This document shows, one piece after another, positions 6,001 through 12,000 of a stretch of DNA of 33,295 nt; positions within the stretch are counted from its first letter, which is position 1; the number at the start of each line of letters is the position of its first letter. Position numbers: made by a program. This stretch comes from Candidatus Aenigmatarchaeota archaeon (lineage in GTDB: Archaea; Aenigmatarchaeota; Aenigmatarchaeia; CG10238-14; SCSR01): the NCBI GenBank assembly GCA_038999725.1, contig JAWBWS010000005.1:1-33295 (forward strand). The letters are read 5' to 3'.

Positions 6001-9000
6001 GGGTGCTGTTAACTTCAAAGCCATAGAGCAATTTGAAAAGTTTAAGAGTGAGTTTGATGAATATAAACAGAAATATGAGAAGATATTGGCTGAAAAGAAG
6101 GCTGTCCTTGAAATGATTGAAGAAATAGAGCAAAAAAGAAGAGAAGTTTTCTTCAAGACTTTGCGAGAGGTAAGTGATAAGTTCAATGAAATGTTTAACA
6201 AAATGACTGGAGGGACTGCAAGCCTAGAGCTAGAAGATCCGAACAATCTTGAGAGTGGACTGTTAATCCAAGCAAATCCTGGGGGGAAAATGCTTTTGAA
6301 TATAGATGCCATGTCTGGTGGAGAAAAAAGCTTGACTGCTTTAGCTTTCTTGTTTGCCGTTCAAGAATATAGGCCTGCTCCATTTTACATATTGGATGAA
6401 GTTGACGCTGCTTTGGATAAAGAAAACAGTAAGAAAGTCGCTGAATTGCTTAAAGCTCTTTCAAAGGAAGCTCAGTTTATTGTTATAACACATAACGACA
6501 CCACAATAACCTATGGGGATATGGTTTACGGTTGCACGATGGATCGTGGAGAAACAAAGATTTTGGGAGTCAAGTTGCCAAAAGAAGCTTAATTTCATGA
6601 AAGTCAAATAATAATTATGGCAGAGGAAGAAAACATTCTTCAACTCATACTGGAAAAGGAAAATTGGGAAGAGATAATTTATCATATAGTTAGCATAGAA
6701 AAACTCGATCCTTGGAATATTGATTTGATTAAGCTTACAGACAGCTTCTTAAATTACTTGAAGAGAATTCAGGAACTTGATTTCAGAATCCCTGCCCGAG
6801 TTGTATTTGTAGCCGCTGTTTTGCTTAGGCTTAAAGCAGATTACCTTTCAATTTTTGAAGAAGAAGAAACAATAGAGCAAATTGTTCAACAACAACAAAT
6901 TGATTTGGGAATAGATCCAAACTTGGTTCAACTAGGTGTTCCTTTGAGAAGAATTCCAAAGAGGCAAATAACTTTAGATGAGTTGATTTTGGCTTTAAGG
7001 AAAGCTATAGCTGTGAGGGAGAGGAGGATAGAAAGAAAAAGAAAGTGGAGAGAGAGAATTGAACTGCAAATAAAAGAGGAGGATATAACAAAAAGAATAG
7101 AAGAGATGATGAAAGAAATAGATGAATTGATGAAAAAATTAAACAGTGATAAAGTTGGATTTAGTCAAATAGTGAAGAAGTGGGAGAGGAAGAGAATTGT
7201 GGATAAATTTGTGCCATTATTACATCTGGAGAATAATGGAAAAATTGAAACCGAACAAGAAGACTTCTTCAAGGAAATTTGGATTTCAAGAATAAAAACT
7301 TAATAGTCGGACAAGCCGTTGTAAGGACAAAACATCAACTTCTAAAAACTTTATCAAATATCTCACTTTTACTGAATTTTCATAGACTTTCTTTTCTAAG
7401 ATAATCCAACACATCTTGGTTCTTAGTGAATAGGCTAATTGTTATTATGGGTTTGTTTCCAGGGTTAATTTCTTCTACAAGTTGTCTTTCGTTAAATACT
7501 CTACAATTAGGATATACCTCATAATATTCTTTGCGTCCAAGTGTAAGAAGTTTAATTATCAATGAAGTTGAAACTGGTACAATGCTTACAGAAAGTAAGT
7601 AATAATGACGTATTTTCTCAATTACATCTTCAGGAGGCATTTTTGTTATATCAGCCTCATGTGTATTATAAAAGGTATATATGAGTTCCCGTGGAAAGAT
7701 AAATTCTACATCCATTTTTTTCCGCACAAAATCATGGACCAAATAAATGAATTGATCTAAGTGACAAGCACCAAAATGCCCACCAGCTAAGATTACCCTA
7801 TTTATTTTTCTTTTTATTAACTCATCTCCCAATAGTTTAGGGTTTTTATGGGAAGTAGTATAGTCTACTGTAGGCTTTCTTCCCACATTTAATGGTGGAT
7901 AAGAAAGATTATACCATGGTATATCAAGTTCTTTTATCAAATACTCAAAACTCTCCTTAATAAGGGATGATGCGCATTTTGTAATAATTGCAACATTTGA
8001 AATTTTTAACATAGTTATTAACTTGTAAAATAATTTTTAAAATTATGTTGGATTCCCAAGAATTAGTTTTGAAAGAAAAGAAAATTTGAAATTTTTGAAG
8101 TTATGGTTTAATGTACTTTCTTTGACCATTGTTAAACCATCTCTAAACTTTAAAGACATCATACGTCTCTTTCAACAAATCAAGCAATTCATTTAAACCT
8201 CCCTGCCAATTTCCACCGGCTTTTATAAATGCTTTACAAATGCTCTTTTCTGTTTTAAAAGTGGAGGGCTCAGTGCACATTTTCTCACGCCAACATCTGG
8301 GACCAATTTCTTTCCTCAATTCTACATGTTTTGCTAGCTCTTCTGTTATGGGAATTCCCACCTTATTTCTTATTTCCCATTGTGCGGTCCCTTCTGACCG
8401 TGTTCTTGATGCCTCAACTACACTCACACCTTTCCCATAAATTTTTCCTTTTGCCAATTGCCCAAGTAGAAGAAAATAAGCAAAGTTTGGGTCTTTTTTC
8501 TCTATCAATTCAATTTGTTTCTCTTTTGCCTTCTCTGCTATCTCTCTATACTCTTTCCTTACCGTCTCTGTAAATGTTGGGGGGACAACAAAAACTCCTC
8601 TTTCGGCAATTTCCTCCATTGGTGCAAGTAGACAAAGAAATCCCCGCTCCCTTACTAACTGTGCATACATAGCCAAGCTTCCTTCAACAAACATATCTAA
8701 GGAGATTGAATAAACATCTCCATTACAAGTGAAGAAAGTCCTCTCATCAATTTTCTCCTTGCCAAAAAATTTCCATTCTGAAGCAGGGTATTCTTCTGGT
8801 ATTTCCAATCCAAATTTTTCTTCTACCACTTTTTTAATTTTCTCAGAAATTTCATTAAGCTCTTGTAGGGGTGCTCTTTTTAAAGAATTTGCTATTTTTG
8901 CATAATATCTGGGTGGGGCGGAAAATATCATCCTTGTTAGCGTTCCCTCTGGTAGAAGATATCTTGCATCCTCTTCTGGAATACCTTGGGCGATTGCCTT

Positions 9001-12000
9001 CTCATATGTTTCGAAAGCCAGTTCCCCAAAGCCAGAAACTATTTCATGATATCTAGCTGGTTTAAGCACACGAAGTGAGGCTTCAATCCCAGCACCATAA
9101 ACCAAATTACCCGAACTGACATTCCGCCAAATGTAAATTGTTGCAAGTCGTGAAATTTCATCAAGAACTATAGCATGATCTGAAAAGTCGCCAAAAATAA
9201 GATGTCTATACTTTTTCATTATTCTGTTGACAAGTTTTTTTGATTTTTCAATATCTCTCTCACATTCTTCATAAAGCTCTTGAATGTTCTTCTCGAATGG
9301 GCTACGTGAAATCTTTGCAGCTAAGGCAGCAAGCATAACAGGCTCATTTTCCCAAAAATAGAATTTCATCATTTTTCTTTAAAAAATAAAAGTATTTAAA
9401 CTTTGGTAGTGTGGAAAAATTTTTTGTAAATCACCAGTTTTTAAGTGGAATCATCTTGAGCTAGTTTTATCACTTGTTAAAATGTTAGCTATAAAGCTAA
9501 GAATAAAGTTAGAACTCCAATCAACCAACAATAGTAGGCAAATTTATAAAAACCACCTTCTATAACAGATTTGGCTATTAGCTTGAGAGTAAAATAGCCA
9601 ACAAGAGCCGAAACTAAAACTCCGACTAAAACAATCTCAATTGGCTCTTGATGAAAATCAATCTCCCCAAACTTAAGAAAACTTGTCCCAAAAATTGCAA
9701 CAATAGAAAGCAAGAAAGAAAACTTGTAAGCCTCTTTTTTATCAACCTTTCTCATCAAAGCAAGAGAAATTGTTATCCCACTCCTTGAAATACCAGGAAT
9801 CAAAGAAAAAACTTGAGCCAAACCTATCATAATAGCATCAGAAAGCTTAACTCTTCTCTTTGGTTTAGAGAATTTTGTCAAATATAAAATTATTCCATTT
9901 ATAAGCAAAGCAAAACTAACAACAAACAAACTTGAAAAAAGTTGCTCAAAAAAGCTTTTGAAGAGAAGACCAAAAATAGCTATTGGCAAACTTCCCACTA
10001 TAATATAAGCAGCCAATTGCCTGCTTTTCTCATCAAATTTCAAAAGCTTGACTATATCCTTCCTTAAGAAGTAAATCACACTAAATAAAGTGCCAAAGTG
10101 AAGCATGACATCAAAGGCAATAGAAGCTCTTATACCAAAAAGTTGTTGGAGGATTACTAAATGGCCTGAGCTTGAGATTGGAAACCATTCCGTTAAACCT
10201 TGGATTATCGCTAAACTTAAGGCTTCGAACAGATTTAACATAATTATCTTGTGATATTACAAGTTTTTAAGTGCTTGCAAATATTTCTCTATGTCCAAAA
10301 TTCCATGGAAGAAAATCTTAGACTTTTTATCAATCAAGAACTTACACTCGCCATAACCAGGTATGAGTTTTAAAATACCAAATTTTTCCATGAATTCTTC
10401 CAAAATTTCAACTGGTCTCATCTTTGCAATATTAAGACCGTCTAAAAGTCGTGGGAAAATTTTGTAAGCGGTTGAAAACCTTACAATCTTATCTTCCATC
10501 TCAAAGATTATGAGGATGTAAAATTTTCCAAAATTTTTTATTGAAATGCATTTGTTTATTACAAAATCTGTGGCATCTGGTTTGTTAAAAGTTTCTAGAA
10601 TAAGTTCTTTTGGTGTCCCGAGGAGTTCGTGAAATCTCTCTATAAGCTCACTGAAGATGAATTGCATTAAATTTTTTTAGTTATAGAAAAATAAAAACTT
10701 ACAGTTTTACCAACTCTCCTTTCCTAAAAGGAATTATCTTCTCTATTTCTTTAAGCTCTATGGCCTCGGTTGCCTTAGAAATTTCAGGACAAACTTTTAG
10801 CAACAATTCTTTTTTTATTTCTTCAGCCAAAGCTTTAGCTTGAGTATCGCCTGGAACAAGAGTTACTAAATAAGGAGTATAAGCTTTAACTGCAGTTGGT
10901 GGCCCATATATAAGCTTAGCATTAAAAACTTTTTCCTGCTTTACCCCTATAGAAAGCCTTGGTTCAATTTTCTCCAAATATTTCCTTTCCCCAATAATCT
11001 CAAAAACTCCTTTGCATCCTTCCTTTGGTTTTTTTATTTGCTCAGGTTTAACATAGAAAACACTAACTTGCTCTTTATCCAGCTTTTTATCCCAAGCCTC
11101 TGAGTAGCAAGTAAGGAAAACAGCAGCTTCATAAATTGTTTCTGCGGGCAAAGGTTGAGCAGCATCATTCCTTATAACTGCAAATCGTGAAGCTAAATCC
11201 GAATGTAAAACTAAATCTTGCTCTCGGGTAAACCTTTTCAAAATCGTTTCATCATTCCTTGCATTTTTGCCCAATATTACCAGAATGTTGTTGCTTGAAA
11301 AAAACCAATAGTAACGCTCATACCATTTTTTACCCATGATAATAAGATGACTTGAGTAAAATTAATTTTTAAATCAAATGATGGAGAATTCCAACCTCAT
11401 CTATTTGGCTGGCTCTAAAGCCTTTGAAACAACCATACCCTGCTATCGCCCTTTCTACAGAAGTTTTTATTCCATATCCTCTCAACCTGTTGCTCCTGTA
11501 GAATTGGTAATATATAGCTTGCTGCTTTTTCAAAACATCTGATGCCCCTTCTTTAGCGTACATGAATAAAAACAAAGTTGCTAAGGGGTGTGTTAATATC
11601 AAACAAAATCTTTTCAGCTCTTTTAACATGATTTTGTTTAAAAAGAAGAAAAATTTAAGTTTTTCTCTCAGCTTCAGTCAAAATTTTCTTTATTTCTTCA
11701 CTACTCTTTCCAAAATATTTTTCAAACTCTAGAGTAGTTGAAAGAAGCTTTGTTCTTCCAAATTTTTCACTTTTTATCAATCCTTTCTCTTCCAAGCCAG
11801 CGATATAGCCGTAGGCTTTATTTCCTTGGATTTTCACTATCAACGATTGTTTTATGGGCTGCTTAGCTGCAACTATTGCAAGTGTACGCATCATCCCATC
11901 ACTCAAATCAGCAAAAGGTGCAAGTTTTGCAACCCTTTCCCTGTAATCTTGCTTCACTCTAAACTCAAACCCTTCTTTTGTCTCAACAAGCTCTATCCCA

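What a model noticed while it worked through the whole genome (the two positions that open the first line are those of the whole stretch)
8143..9369. Single-chain tandem ThyX, the only thymidylate synthase candidate, of a family shared with Patescibacteria
g00700 (408 aa) is twice the length of a ThyX subunit and has two ThyX-like halves in one chain: Pfam Thy1 recognises the N-terminal half, and the C-terminal half (aa 210-401) superposes on solved ThyX structures and carries the only, altered, copy of the signature motif. No ThyA and no other ThyX is encoded, so this pseudo-dimer is the only candidate for dTMP synthesis. The 410-aa form is a family of its own whose named members are mostly Patescibacteria; in Aenigmatarchaeota it is rare and patchy, and the copy here is not the orthologue of the copy in same-genus G053, which points to repeated transfer between CPR bacteria and DPANN archaea.
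Evidence so far: Calls 7, 83, 86: Thy1 at aa 10-185 (E 9e-11), no canonical signature motif, no other thymidylate synthase family in the Pfam table. Calls 138, 139, 144: model from 39 sequences, mean pLDDT 93.9. Call 148: aa 210-401 against ThyX of M. tuberculosis, T. maritima, C. glutamicum, Z 10-11, rmsd 2.4-3.0 over about 150 residues. Call 87: 133 homologues (E at most 1e-5), nearly all 405-440 aa; the best are 60-65% identical and the named ones among them are Patescibacteria. Call 89: 8 of 370 Aenigmatarchaeota genomes have it (E at most 1e-40), at most 56% identical. Call 88: the G053 copy is 52% identical (median orthologue 80%) and lies at another locus. Call 90: in a tree of 112 sequences the G053 [...]
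(Added by a program. Inside this text positions count along the whole contig: contig position 1 is position 1 of the stretch shown here. "Call 12" and the like, gene names such as g00115 and contig names such as C1 are that model's own, and its searches are not shown. The text may have been shortened before it was handed on; [...] marks where a part breaks off. The agent that wrote the report below was given it as the finding of a first reader that could run no searches.)

Follow-up and report, generated by a model that had tools for sequence, protein, structure and literature searches.

The report
Two-in-one ThyX thymidylate synthase
This small hot-spring archaeon's only candidate enzyme for making the DNA base thymine is a single chain holding two copies of the ThyX fold, each keeping the half of the active site that the other lost; such duplicated ThyX proteins turn out to be widespread but untested.

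Summary
The ORF is real (window 8143-9372, minus strand, 408/409 aa). It has two ThyX-fold halves and is the only thymidylate synthase candidate in a 730-kb, 93%-complete genome.

- The signature motif is not "only in the C half". It is split. The N half keeps E-x-S-x-R, R147, R165 and H53 (T. maritima numbering). The C half keeps Q75, R-x-R, R174 and AQWEIR. These match the two monomer sets that bind substrate in the solved ThyX homologue PolB.
- Tandem ThyX is not rare. It is common in this phylum and in bacteria, and was noted as uncharacterised in 2009. The ~410-aa family is a compact derived branch that lacks Tyr91 and His79.
- Repeated transfer between CPR bacteria and DPANN archaea is not required by the data. 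AU tests do not reject a single bacteria/archaea split, and the rooted tree has an archaeal grade at its base.

The gene does sit in a genus-variable spot and is absent there in 5 of 5 congeners.

New here:
- a conserved four-Cys site, with a switch in the fourth ligand position;
- dCMP/dCTP deaminase, Tmk or SHMT next to the gene in relatives;
- a supported homodimer;
- none of the known folate C1 or dUMP-forming enzyme families searched for was found in this genome.

The parts
8143..9372 (-). Tandem ThyX gene (409 aa from the first ATG; 408 aa from the second ATG at 9369; stop codon at 8143-8145)
8758..9372 (-). N half (aa 1-205). ThyX fold that keeps H57 (=H53 of T. maritima), R75, R83 (=R78), E97-x-S99-x-R101 (=E86, S88, R90), R137 (=R147) and R155 (=R165). 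It lacks H79, R80, Y91 (V102 here) and R174.
   Evidence: Pfam; hhalign against canonical ThyX, probability 99.1, E 9.5e-19; conservation 113/113 at H57, R75, E97, S99, R101 and R155, and 108/113 (5 K) at R137; coordinates checked
9070..9084 (-). E97-A-S99-L-R101: the substrate-loop part of the ThyX signature, kept in the N half after a 6-residue insert
8146..8757 (-). C half (aa 206-409). ThyX fold that keeps Q238 (=Q75), R241-E-R243 (=R78, H79 changed to E, R80), R325 (=R174) and AQWEIR. It lacks S88, R90, Y91, R147, R165 and the H53 region.
   Evidence: VIA-align Z 10-11.3; hhalign probability 98.7, E 3.1e-16; conservation
8644..8652 (-). R241-E242-R243: the altered RHR (RQR in 104 of 113 family members, RER in 7)
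8368..8400 (-). R325-SEGT-AQWEIR335: equivalent of the R174 helix that activates dUMP
8632..8634 (-). C247, the fourth Cys of the putative metal site. It sits at position 84 of the degenerate loop of the C half.
   Evidence: 107/113 in the family; ligand-position switch
8236..8304 (-). C-terminal Cys tail G357-P-R-C360-x5-C366-x12-C379
   Evidence: 113/113 for G357, P358, C360, C366 and C379; tail motif in 118 of 120 family sequences and 106 of 147 further representatives
9393..9400 (-). TTTAAATA, 20 nt upstream of the first ATG: TATA-box-like element. That this is an archaeal promoter is an inference and was not tested.
   Evidence: sequence printed
7380..8012 (-). 210-aa ORF directly downstream on the same strand. 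It belongs to the same genus-specific insert and has no Pfam family.
27293..27949 (-). Thymidylate kinase, the consumer of dTMP, 18 kb away in the same window
   Evidence: PF02223, E 3.1e-48

Best explanation
The gene most likely encodes a working flavin-dependent thymidylate synthase of the duplicated (tandem) ThyX class.

One chain carries two ThyX-fold halves that have degenerated in a complementary way.
- The C half supplies what one monomer of a canonical ThyX gives to the nucleotide site: Q75, R78, R80 and the dUMP-activating R174 helix.
- The N half supplies what the neighbouring monomer gives: the E86-x-S88-x-R90 loop and R147. It also supplies R165 and the flavin-stacking H53, which comes from a third monomer in canonical ThyX.

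Two chains pair into a pseudo-tetramer (N, C, N', C'). This would have two complete active sites instead of four.

A four-Cys site binds a metal next to the R-x-R / R174 elements. It is made of C360, C366 and C379 in a C-terminal tail plus C247. It could be structural Zn or an Fe-S cluster.

Shown here: the fold of both halves, the pattern of kept and lost residues, their invariance, the predicted dimer, and the gene neighbourhoods in relatives.

Inferred, not shown: FAD binding, dUMP methylation, the number of live sites, metal binding, and the source of dUMP and of the methylene group in this genome.
For: Fold. Pfam Thy1 scores 60.3 bits in 2 stretches. hhalign of the N half against canonical ThyX gives probability 99.1, and of the C half 98.7. 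VIA-align gives Z 10-11.3 for aa 210-401. Foldseek finds only ThyX and PolB chains at E<=1e-3 (42 matches).

Numbering. The T. maritima numbering is anchored on the HMMER alignment to PDB chains, with an offset of 12. The offset is checked by the Ala at chain position 102 of 5ios, whose title says 'R90A variant'.

Complementarity. In PolB, F79, R82, H83, R86, R193 and Q206 of one monomer and E94', S96', A97', R98' and R166' of the neighbour hold the nucleotide (passage read in PMC5003785). The C half keeps the first set and the N half keeps the second. H53 comes from 'monomer-3' (passage in PMC11940539) and is H57 of the N half.

Constraint. In 113 full-length family members, 113/113 keep H57, R75, E97, S99, R101, R155, R241, R243, R325, E333, R335, C360, C366 and C379. 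R137 is kept in 108/113, with K in the other 5. The window protein departs from 1 of 76 columns that are at least 95% conserved (E250A), and the family median is also 1.

The same split in other tandem ThyX. Of 114 representatives of 400 aa or more, 70 have RHR only in the C half, 73 have S-x-R-Y/F only in the N half, 58 have both features, and 2 have RHR in both halves.

Dimer. ipSAE is 0.87 (median of 3 runs) and the best of 3 controls is 0.00. This mark was reached by 20 of 30 proteins solved as pairs of one chain and by 1 of 23 solved as single chains. The runs share at least 50% of contacts and the partner pLDDT is at least 84. The contacts include N-N' (87:87, 92:92), C-C' (224:224, 314:314) and N-C' (88-90 with 315-317). 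ThyX tetramers are solved, so this pass may reflect likeness to known structures.

Genomic context in relatives:
- L017: NusG, L11, dCMP deaminase, Tmk, this gene, SHMT, GatB.
- L021 and L024: dCMP deaminase directly upstream.
- L015: a dCMP deaminase about 1.5 kb upstream, with two ORFs between, and a dCTP-deaminase-like gene about 0.6 kb downstream, with one ORF between.
- L025: dCTP-deaminase-like genes on both sides.
- L023: a dCTP-deaminase-like gene about 0.4 kb upstream, with no called ORF between.
- L031: SHMT about 1.4 kb downstream, with two ORFs between.
- G120: dCMP deaminase at C37:1215-1604, just before the gene at 1828-3045.
- G358: SHMT 1.8 kb away.

Metal site. 118 of 120 family sequences have the Cys tail, and 114 of these have a fourth Cys at position 84 or 176. 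Outside the family, 92 of 106 tail-bearing representatives use position 176. Inside it, 111 of 118 use position 84.
Against: - No activity, flavin or metal was measured.
- The equivalog model TIGR02170 scores 36.6 bits against a cut-off of 87.9.
- Tyr91 is V102 (V in 105/113, L in 4, I in 2). Its mutation in T. maritima ThyX lowers flavin oxidation 1000-fold (passage in PMC11940539). [quoted passage not shown]
- His79 is E here and Q in 104/113.
- N163 and R165 are lost in the C half.
- The genome shows no SHMT, FolD C-terminal domain, GcvT, dUTPase, DCD, dCMP deaminase, MazG or thymidine kinase above threshold. The same-genus genome G125 also lacks SHMT, dCMP deaminase and DCD. The usual sources of both substrates are therefore not visible.
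- I had no model coordinates. The composite site and the closeness of the four Cys are read from sequence mapping and from one paper's description of PolB.
- The two halves show no direct similarity to each other (hhalign probability 0.3).
Confidence: 0.68

Rival explanations
1. Same fold and assembly, but different chemistry or substrate. This would be a ThyX-derived flavoenzyme that methylates or hydroxymethylates another pyrimidine nucleotide, as PolB does with UMP. Alternatively it could take its one-carbon unit from a donor other than folate, which would fit a host without folate C1 enzymes.
For: Tyr91 and His79 are replaced throughout the family. The protein falls below the NCBIfam equivalog cut-off. 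PolB shows that the fold can change substrate (PMC5003785, abstract and passages). T. maritima ThyX can use formaldehyde directly (PMC8316439, abstract). G000 and G125 show no SHMT, and G000 shows no FolD or GcvT either.
Against: The residues that hold dUMP in canonical enzymes (R78, R80, E86, S88, R90, R147, R174) are all kept, and all but the R147 equivalent (R137, 108/113) are invariant. In bacterial and archaeal relatives the gene sits beside dCMP/dCTP deaminases, Tmk and SHMT, which is the dTMP pathway. Thymidylate kinase is present in the window, and no other thymidylate synthase is found.
Confidence: 0.17
2. The protein is an inactive or regulatory remnant, and the cell takes its thymidine nucleotides from a host.
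For: Both halves have lost parts of the signature. No dUMP-forming or CH2-THF-forming enzyme was found in the genome. DPANN archaea are generally host-dependent; this last point is recalled, not tested.
Against: 76 columns are at least 95% conserved over 113 sequences that are only 46-65% identical to the query. The window copy departs in only one of them. The losses are complementary, not random. No thymidine kinase was found for salvage; the best PF00265 hit is 15 bits, below the cut-off.
Confidence: 0.05
3. Evolutionary rival: the 410-aa family is Patescibacterial, and archaeal copies, including this one, come from repeated CPR-to-DPANN transfers.
For: 7 of 9 organism names among the 120 best hits are Patescibacteria-type. 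10 of 18 species-representative loci are bacterial, and flanking NusG, L11, GatB and GyrB genes confirm this for those inspected. Only 8 of 370 phylum genomes have the family. The cassette is absent from the same spot in 5 of 5 congeners. In the careful tree, two labelled archaeal rows (L028, L018) nest among bacterial rows, and all 200 bootstrap trees need 3 label changes.
Against: Rooted on the DPANN-type tandem forms, the base of the family is an archaeal grade: L032, L009, then L024, L023, L019 and L029, with the first deep split at 99/99. The window protein with P0003 is sister (85/78) to the clade holding all bacterial rows, not inside it. The AU tests reject neither one bacteria/archaea split (p 0.89) nor a window+G125 clade (p 0.84). 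Two genomes of other families in the class have their tandem thyX beside the same SMC-ScpA-ScpB(-NFACT) cluster. The outgroup branch is long (1.83), so the root itself is uncertain.
Confidence: 0.3

Closest known systems
Canonical homotetrameric ThyX / FDTS (e.g. T. maritima TM0449, PDB 1O26, 4GT9; M. tuberculosis 2AF6)
   Same: Both halves have the same fold. The same dUMP-contacting arginines, Ser88, Glu86 and His53 are present. The predicted assembly has four ThyX domains.
   Different: There are two domains per chain. No single domain has the full RHRxxSxxxxSxRY motif. Tyr91 and His79 are absent. An inferred two active sites per assembly replace the four of canonical ThyX. A C-terminal Cys tail is present that none of the solved chains matched here was seen to carry; the T. 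maritima sequence shown ends before that region. The protein is below the TIGR02170 cut-off.
Duplicated ThyX of about 430-520 aa in bacteria and archaea. It was noted for Chloroflexi as 'not characterized' (PMC3224940, passage read). An example is P0211, 503 aa, named FAD-dependent thymidylate synthase of a Clostridium sp..
   Same: Tandem architecture. The same division of labour applies: S-x-R in the N half, R-x-R plus AQWEIR in the C half. The same GPxC...C...C tail is present.
   Different: The classic forms keep RHR and S-x-R-Y and place the fourth Cys two residues after R174. The 410-aa family is 20-110 residues shorter, has RQR/RER and S-x-R-V, and moved the fourth Cys to position 84. 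I recall that the chlamydial ThyX studied biochemically is also about twice the normal length. I could not verify this with the tools.
DPANN-type tandem ThyX (P0141, P0142, P0146 of an Aenigmarchaeota MAG, P0152; G002, G083, G141, G070, G160)
   Same: Tandem architecture, about 410-450 aa, Cys tail, RHR replaced (RNR). It occurs in the same phylum. In G002 it lies beside the same SMC-ScpA-ScpB cluster.
   Different: Only 29-33% identical to the window protein. It keeps S-x-R-Y and the fourth Cys at position 176.
PolB, the UMP/dUMP C5-methylase of polyoxin synthesis (PDB 4P5A/4P5B)
   Same: ThyX fold (Z 10.1-10.2). Its published contact list provides the two-monomer template used here.
   Different: PolB is a single-domain homotetramer with a full motif and extra loops that select UMP. 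It has no Cys tail.

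Membership tests
ThyX / Thy1 superfamily (PF02511) | Thy1 domain above Pfam's gathering score | tested here: met
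   60.3 bits against a cut-off of 24.8, in 2 stretches. In the six-frame genome search the C half alone scores 19.4 bits, below the cut-off.
ThyX / Thy1 superfamily (PF02511) | ThyX fold in three dimensions | tested here: met
   aa 210-401: Z 10-11.3, rmsd 2.3-3.0, about 150 residues aligned. For the N half the evidence is profile-based only: hhalign probability 99.1 and PDB profile E 6.2e-7.
Flavin-dependent thymidylate synthase (ThyX, EC 2.1.1.148) | Contiguous signature RHRxxSxxxxSxRY within one domain | tested here: not met
   The N half has R-N-V ... E-A-S-L-R-V. The C half has R-E-R with no S-x-R-Y.
Flavin-dependent thymidylate synthase (ThyX, EC 2.1.1.148) | Full set of nucleotide-binding residues (Q75, R78, R80, E86, S88, R90, R147, R174) available to one pocket | tested here: inconclusive
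   All are present, and all but the R147 equivalent (R137, 108/113) are invariant, but they are shared between the halves. That they meet in one pocket follows from the PolB contact list. No coordinates were available to check this.
Flavin-dependent thymidylate synthase (ThyX, EC 2.1.1.148) | Catalytic helpers Tyr91 and His79 | tested here: not met
   Position 102 is V in 105/113. Position 242 is Q in 104/113 and E here.
Flavin-dependent thymidylate synthase (ThyX, EC 2.1.1.148) | NCBIfam equivalog TIGR02170 above its cut-off | tested here: not met
   36.6 bits against 87.9.
Flavin-dependent thymidylate synthase (ThyX, EC 2.1.1.148) | Assembly of four ThyX domains | tested here: inconclusive
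   The homodimer is supported by the model: ipSAE 0.87, best control 0.00. The mark was reached by 20 of 30 solved homo-pairs and by 1 of 23 single chains. Contacts agree in at least 50%, and the partner pLDDT is at least 84. The result may lean on solved ThyX tetramers.
Flavin-dependent thymidylate synthase (ThyX, EC 2.1.1.148) | Genomic association with dTMP metabolism | tested here: met
   In relatives, dCMP deaminase, DCD, Tmk or SHMT lie adjacent to the gene or within three ORFs of it in L015, L017, L021, L023, L024, L025, L031, G120 and G358. In the window itself the only such gene is Tmk, 18 kb away.
Flavin-dependent thymidylate synthase (ThyX, EC 2.1.1.148) | FAD binding and dUMP-to-dTMP activity | not testable with these tools
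   Needs biochemistry.
Duplicated (tandem) ThyX class | Two Thy1 domains in one chain, with S-x-R in the first and R-x-R plus AQWEIR in the second | tested here: met
   The same pattern occurs in 58 of 114 long representatives by strict motif (RHR in the C half only and S-x-R-Y/F in the N half only).
Duplicated (tandem) ThyX class | C-terminal GPxC-x(4-7)-C-x(4-14)-C tail plus a fourth Cys | tested here: met
   C360, C366 and C379 are 113/113 and C247 is 107/113. The fourth Cys is at another position than in the classic forms.

The most novel reading that the evidence does not exclude
The four-Cys site is a redox-active [4Fe-4S] cluster seated beside the R-x-R / R174 elements. It would pass electrons from a ferredoxin-type donor to the flavin, giving a thymidylate synthase that does not depend on NADPH. 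In hosts such as this genus, where none of the folate C1 enzyme families searched for (SHMT, FolD, GcvT) was found, the enzyme would draw its methylene from a donor other than CH2-THF, for example through the formaldehyde shunt shown in vitro for T. maritima ThyX. The loss of Tyr91 and His79 would be part of that change of chemistry.
Probability: 0.12. Interest if true: 0.85.

Novelty: new variant of a known kind. Interest (0 to 1): 0.5.

Why it matters
ThyX is a drug target and a textbook case of a homotetramer whose active sites are built from three subunits. A natural single-chain version in which each half has kept only its own share of the site is a ready-made dissection of that site. It predicts half-of-the-sites stoichiometry.

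The conserved four-Cys site occurs in most tandem ThyX and in some single-domain ThyX seen here. My searches of the held literature found no mention of it in connection with ThyX. If it is a cofactor site, it would change how reduction of the flavin is understood in many anaerobes.

For DPANN and CPR biology, the gene shows that very small genomes keep de novo dTMP synthesis even where the usual suppliers of dUMP and methylene-folate are not visible. It also shows that thymidylate synthase type is exchanged even within one genus.

Tried and rejected
- One search compared the protein with itself by mistake and says nothing.
- Direct hhalign of the N half against the C half gave no signal (probability 0.3). 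The duplication is visible only through canonical ThyX.
- The PDB profile search matched only the N-half region of the profile (positions 40-188). Foldseek rmsd values of 12-15 A were unhelpful until the VIA re-alignment.
- The quick trees were poor. Constrained searches found trees 27 and 41 log-likelihood units better, so I do not use the quick topologies for claims.
- The single-protein scan of metagenome contigs gave 1 partial locus, so the domain of the closest relatives (P0002, P0003) stays unknown.
- The look-up of sequencing runs listed no RNA holder. The 5 runs holding the DNA are hot-spring metagenomes from 2 studies, and 2 of them may be the source. I laid no reads.
- The search of earlier findings returned nothing.
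- Literature searches:
  - One search was useless.
  - Searches found no paper linking ThyX to an Fe-S or Zn site. One search was unspecific: of its 25 listed papers only PMC7264889 holds 'ThyX', and its ThyX passages say nothing on metals.
  - Searches found only PMC3224940 on the duplication.
  - PMC409905 and PMC3465422 are not held.
- Considered and dropped: a frameshifted or fused pair of genes (one open frame, no stops); another genetic code (not needed); contamination by a CPR contig. On contamination, the window carries archaeal-type neighbours that are collinear with 5 congeners at 60-96% protein identity.

Full report
**1. The observation.**

The window has one open frame at 8143..9372 on the minus strand, 409 aa from the first ATG.

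Pfam Thy1 matches at 60.3 bits (cut-off 24.8) in two stretches. A six-frame search of the whole genome finds only this locus. The N half has E 1e-10. The C half has E 2.8e-4 at 19.4 bits, below the cut-off when taken alone.

ThyA (PF00303) is not found. The genome is 729,769 bases in 9 contigs and 93% complete.

An AlphaFold2 model built from 40 sequences has mean pLDDT 92.6. Foldseek finds only ThyX and PolB chains. VIA-align places residues 210-401 on ThyX of M. tuberculosis, C. glutamicum and T. maritima at Z 10-11.3, rmsd 2.3-3.0, about 150 residues. The next unrelated chain scores Z 3.4.

**2. How the two halves relate to a normal ThyX.**

I cut the 40-sequence alignment (A1) at residue 205/206. 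I then compared each half with nine single-domain ThyX sequences taken.
- N half: probability 99.1, E 9.5e-19.
- C half: probability 98.7, E 3.1e-16.
- The halves against each other: nothing (probability 0.3).

T. maritima numbering comes from the HMMER alignment to PDB chains. The chain index minus 12 gives the residue number. This is checked by the Ala at chain position 102 of the entry titled 'R90A variant'.

| | Keeps | Has lost |
|---|---|---|
| N half | H57 (=H53), R75, R83 (=R78), E97-x-S99-x-R101 (=E86, S88, R90, after a 6-residue insert), R137 (=R147), R155 (=R165) | H79, R80, Y91 (V102), R174 |
| C half | Q238 (=Q75), R241 and R243 (=R78, R80), R325 (=R174), AQWEIR | S88, R90, Y91, R147, R165, the H53 region |

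The signature is divided between the halves.

**3. Why the division makes sense.**

The structure paper on the ThyX homologue PolB gives a contact list (passage read, PMC5003785). The nucleotide is held by F79, R82, H83, R86, R193 and Q206 of one monomer. It is also held by E94', S96', A97', R98' and R166' of the neighbouring monomer.

By motif pattern these are the R-H-R / R174 set and the E-x-S-x-R / R147 set. The C half keeps exactly the first set, and the N half keeps exactly the second. H53 comes from a third monomer (passage, PMC11940539), and only the N half has it.

A dimer of tandem chains (N, C, N', C') would thus build two complete sites, each from C plus two N halves. The two reciprocal sites would be incomplete. 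This is an inference, because no coordinates were available to me.

The homodimer itself is supported by the complex predictor.
- ipSAE is 0.87 (median of 3 runs) and the best of 3 controls is 0.00.
- The mark was reached by 20 of 30 proteins solved as pairs of one chain and by 1 of 23 solved as single chains.
- The runs agree in at least 50% of contacts, and the partner pLDDT is at least 84.
- The contacts are of three kinds: N-N', C-C' and N-C'. This is what a four-domain ThyX-like body needs.

ThyX tetramers are solved, so the pass may reflect likeness to known structures.

**4. Constraint.**

I examined the 113 family members of 380 aa or more, out of the 120 listed.
- The kept residues are invariant in 113/113: H57, R75, E97, S99, R101, R155, R241, R243, R325, E333 and R335. 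R137 is kept in 108/113, with K in the other 5.
- Position 102 is V in 105, L in 4 and I in 2.
- Position 242 is Q in 104, E in 7 and D in 2.
- The window protein departs from 1 of 76 columns that are at least 95% conserved (E250A). The family median is also 1.

It is an ordinary, intact member of its family.

**5. A four-Cys site.**

C360, C366 and C379 are invariant (113/113) and C247 is present in 107/113. The tail motif GPxC-x(4-7)-C-x(4-14)-C is present in 118 of 120 family sequences. It is also present in 106 of the 147 further representatives, which include single-domain ThyX such as P0230 and P0248.

The fourth Cys changes place.

| Group (tail-bearing) | Position 176 (two after R174) | Position 84 (after R-x-R) | Neither |
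|---|---|---|---|
| Outside the family, n=106 | 92 (8 of them also at position 84) | 4 only here | 10 |
| Inside the family, n=118 | 22 (19 of them both) | 111 | 4 |

Nearly every tail therefore comes with one or the other. This is what one metal site with an exchangeable fourth ligand would give. It also implies that positions 84 and 176 of the same domain lie close together. That fits the PolB contact list, in which residues around the R-H-R and R193 of one monomer touch the same nucleotide.

I cannot tell whether the metal is Zn or an Fe-S cluster. In one archaeal relative (L024) the gene is followed by cysteine desulfurase and NifU, which is only a hint. My searches of the held papers found nothing that links ThyX to such a site.

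**6. Function.**

In relatives the neighbours belong to the dTMP pathway.
- L017: NusG, L11, dCMP deaminase, thymidylate kinase, the gene, SHMT, GatB.
- L021: dCMP deaminase directly upstream.
- L015: a dCMP deaminase about 1.5 kb upstream, with two ORFs between, and a dCTP-deaminase-like gene about 0.6 kb downstream, with one ORF between.
- L025: dCTP-deaminase-like genes on both sides.
- L031: SHMT about 1.4 kb downstream, with two ORFs between.
- L023: a dCTP-deaminase-like gene about 0.4 kb upstream, with no called ORF between.
- L024: dCMP deaminase upstream (all).
- G120: dCMP deaminase ends 224 bases before the gene.
- G358: SHMT lies 1.8 kb away.

This is good context evidence for dUMP-to-dTMP synthesis with methylene-folate in the family.

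In the window's own genome the picture is barer. Thymidylate kinase and a ribonucleotide reductase are present. I found no SHMT, FolD, GcvT, dUTPase, DCD, dCMP deaminase, MazG or thymidine kinase. The same-genus genome G125 (88% complete) also lacks SHMT, dCMP deaminase and DCD.

Where dUMP and the methylene group come from in this genus is open.

Two catalytic helpers of the T. maritima enzyme are missing in the whole family.
- His79.

T. maritima ThyX can use formaldehyde directly (abstract, PMC8316439). A folate-independent route is therefore conceivable but untested.

**7. How unusual the architecture is.**

A profile search of 1.84 billion representatives gave 1082 hits at E<=1e-3, 144 at E<=1e-10 and 29 at E<=1e-30. 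Of the 147 newly numbered proteins (P0121-P0267) among the 150 best hits listed, 114 are 400 aa or longer.

By strict motif among those 114:
- 70 have RHR only in the C half;
- 73 have S-x-R-Y/F only in the N half;
- 58 have both features;
- 2 have RHR in both halves.

One of them is named FAD-dependent thymidylate synthase of a Clostridium sp. (P0211, 503 aa).

In the window's own phylum, PF02511 hits 179 of 370 genomes. In at least 28 genomes both stretches are listed within one open frame of 453-561 aa, for example G334, G006 and G347.

A 2009 paper states that the Chloroflexi ThyX 'contains a domain duplication' and 'has not been characterized' (passage, PMC3224940). It is the only paper my searches found on this point.

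The tandem form is thus a known, widespread but unstudied kind. The 410-aa family is a compact, more derived branch of it.

**8. Distribution and history.**

The family proper is in 8 of 370 phylum genomes, G000 included (E<=1e-40). Five more genomes carry a distant tandem type at 29-33% identity.

Among species-representative genomes there are 18 loci: 10 bacterial and 8 archaeal by record title. Bacterial flanks (NusG, L11, GatB, GyrB) confirm the bacterial label for the loci inspected.

The careful tree has 37 rows. I left out the long-branch rows P0122, P0124, P0126, P0127 and P0129 and many unnamed rows. It is rooted on five DPANN-type tandem proteins.
- The base is an archaeal grade: L032, L009, a 99/99 split, then L024+P0115, L023, L019+P0104 and L029+P0090+P0119.
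- A crown (87/93) holds all 10 bacterial rows and two archaeal rows.
- The window protein with the unnamed P0003 (90/94) is sister (85/78) to the rest of the crown.

Three label changes are needed in all 200 bootstrap trees. However, the AU test does not reject all bacterial rows on one side of a single branch (p 0.89). It also does not reject the window and G125 copies as one clade (p 0.84).

The outgroup branch is long (1.83), so the root is not secure. My reading is an archaeal origin with transfer into CPR bacteria, held at modest confidence. The number of transfers is unresolved.

**9. The locus within the genus.**

ScpA orthologues in five congeners are 82-89% identical. All five share the order ScpA, then on the other strand BacA, a 136-aa ORF (not found in G126 and G127), NFACT, an 86-aa ORF and ScpB.

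Between ScpA and BacA the content varies.

| Genome | Content between ScpA and BacA |
|---|---|
| G126, G127 | MscL only |
| G128 | MscL plus two unknown ORFs |
| G129 | An MscL fragment plus an unknown ORF |
| G125 | A 1774-aa subtilase |
| G000 | The 210-aa ORF and the thyX gene, no MscL |

The cassette is therefore specific to this lineage and sits in a variable spot.

One observation points the other way. Two genomes of other families in the class have their tandem thyX convergent to the same SMC-ScpA-ScpB(-NFACT) cluster. G002 has the distant type and G037 has a basal family member. This may be old linkage with later turnover, or it may be chance. I cannot decide between the two.

Thymidylate synthase type also switches within the genus. 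PF02511 is in G000, G125, G126 and G127. PF00303-like hits are in G124, G128 and G129. G130 has neither.

**10. Verdict.**

This is a real gene and very probably an active enzyme. It is a new variant of the known but uncharacterised duplicated-ThyX kind.

The most useful new points are:
- the clean complementary split of the active site;
- the predicted two-site pseudo-tetramer;
- the conserved four-Cys site with its ligand switch;
- the loss of Tyr91 and His79;
- the absence of visible folate C1 and dUMP-forming enzymes in this genus.

Noticed in passing
window 7380-8012 (-): A 210-aa ORF lies directly downstream of thyX and belongs to the same genus-specific insert. It has no Pfam family. 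The ESM Atlas gives only weak leads to the isochorismatase / cysteine-hydrolase fold (feature scores 0.80-0.87, TM 0.51-0.64), all below the level that counts.
   Followed up: partly
window 7303-9489; L043-L047: The gap between ScpA and BacA is a variable spot in the genus. It holds MscL in G126, G127 and G128, an MscL fragment in G129, a 1774-aa S8 subtilase with Ig-like domains in G125, and the thyX cassette in G000.
   Followed up: yes
phylum genomes, e.g. G129:C15:16703-17125, G124:C3:10983-11366: Many Aenigmatarchaeota carry a partial PF00303 (ThyA) match covering model positions about 88-250, at 50-90 bits, inside open frames of 470-600 aa. This looks like a long ThyA-like protein of unknown make-up. 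Within the window's genus these hits and Thy1 hits exclude each other: G124, G128 and G129 have the ThyA-like match, and G000, G125, G126 and G127 have Thy1.
   Followed up: no
P0240 (194 aa), P0263 (251 aa): These are stand-alone proteins that resemble the C half alone (RNR, AQWEIR, Cys tail) and the N half alone (GTEMSQRY) of the DPANN-type tandem ThyX. They may be split, two-gene versions or truncated gene calls. Their contigs could not be looked up.
   Followed up: no
L024:4261-5822: In a Pacearchaeota genome the tandem thyX is followed by a class-V aminotransferase (cysteine desulfurase type) and NifU. These are Fe-S assembly genes next to a protein with a four-Cys site.
   Followed up: no
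window 30109-30616 (-): A 94-aa ORF with the first half of a NUDIX domain overlaps an 85-aa ORF with no family. This is possibly one gene broken by a frameshift.
   Followed up: no
window 12528-13355 (+): A 275-aa protein combines an ATP-cone, an Mrr-type restriction endonuclease domain and an AF1548-like C-terminal domain. It is conserved at 76-80% identity in the congeners.
   Followed up: no
window 8623-8625 (aa 250): The window protein has Ala where 110 of 113 family members have Glu (LCxIEPLE). This is its only departure from the 76 most conserved columns.
   Followed up: partly
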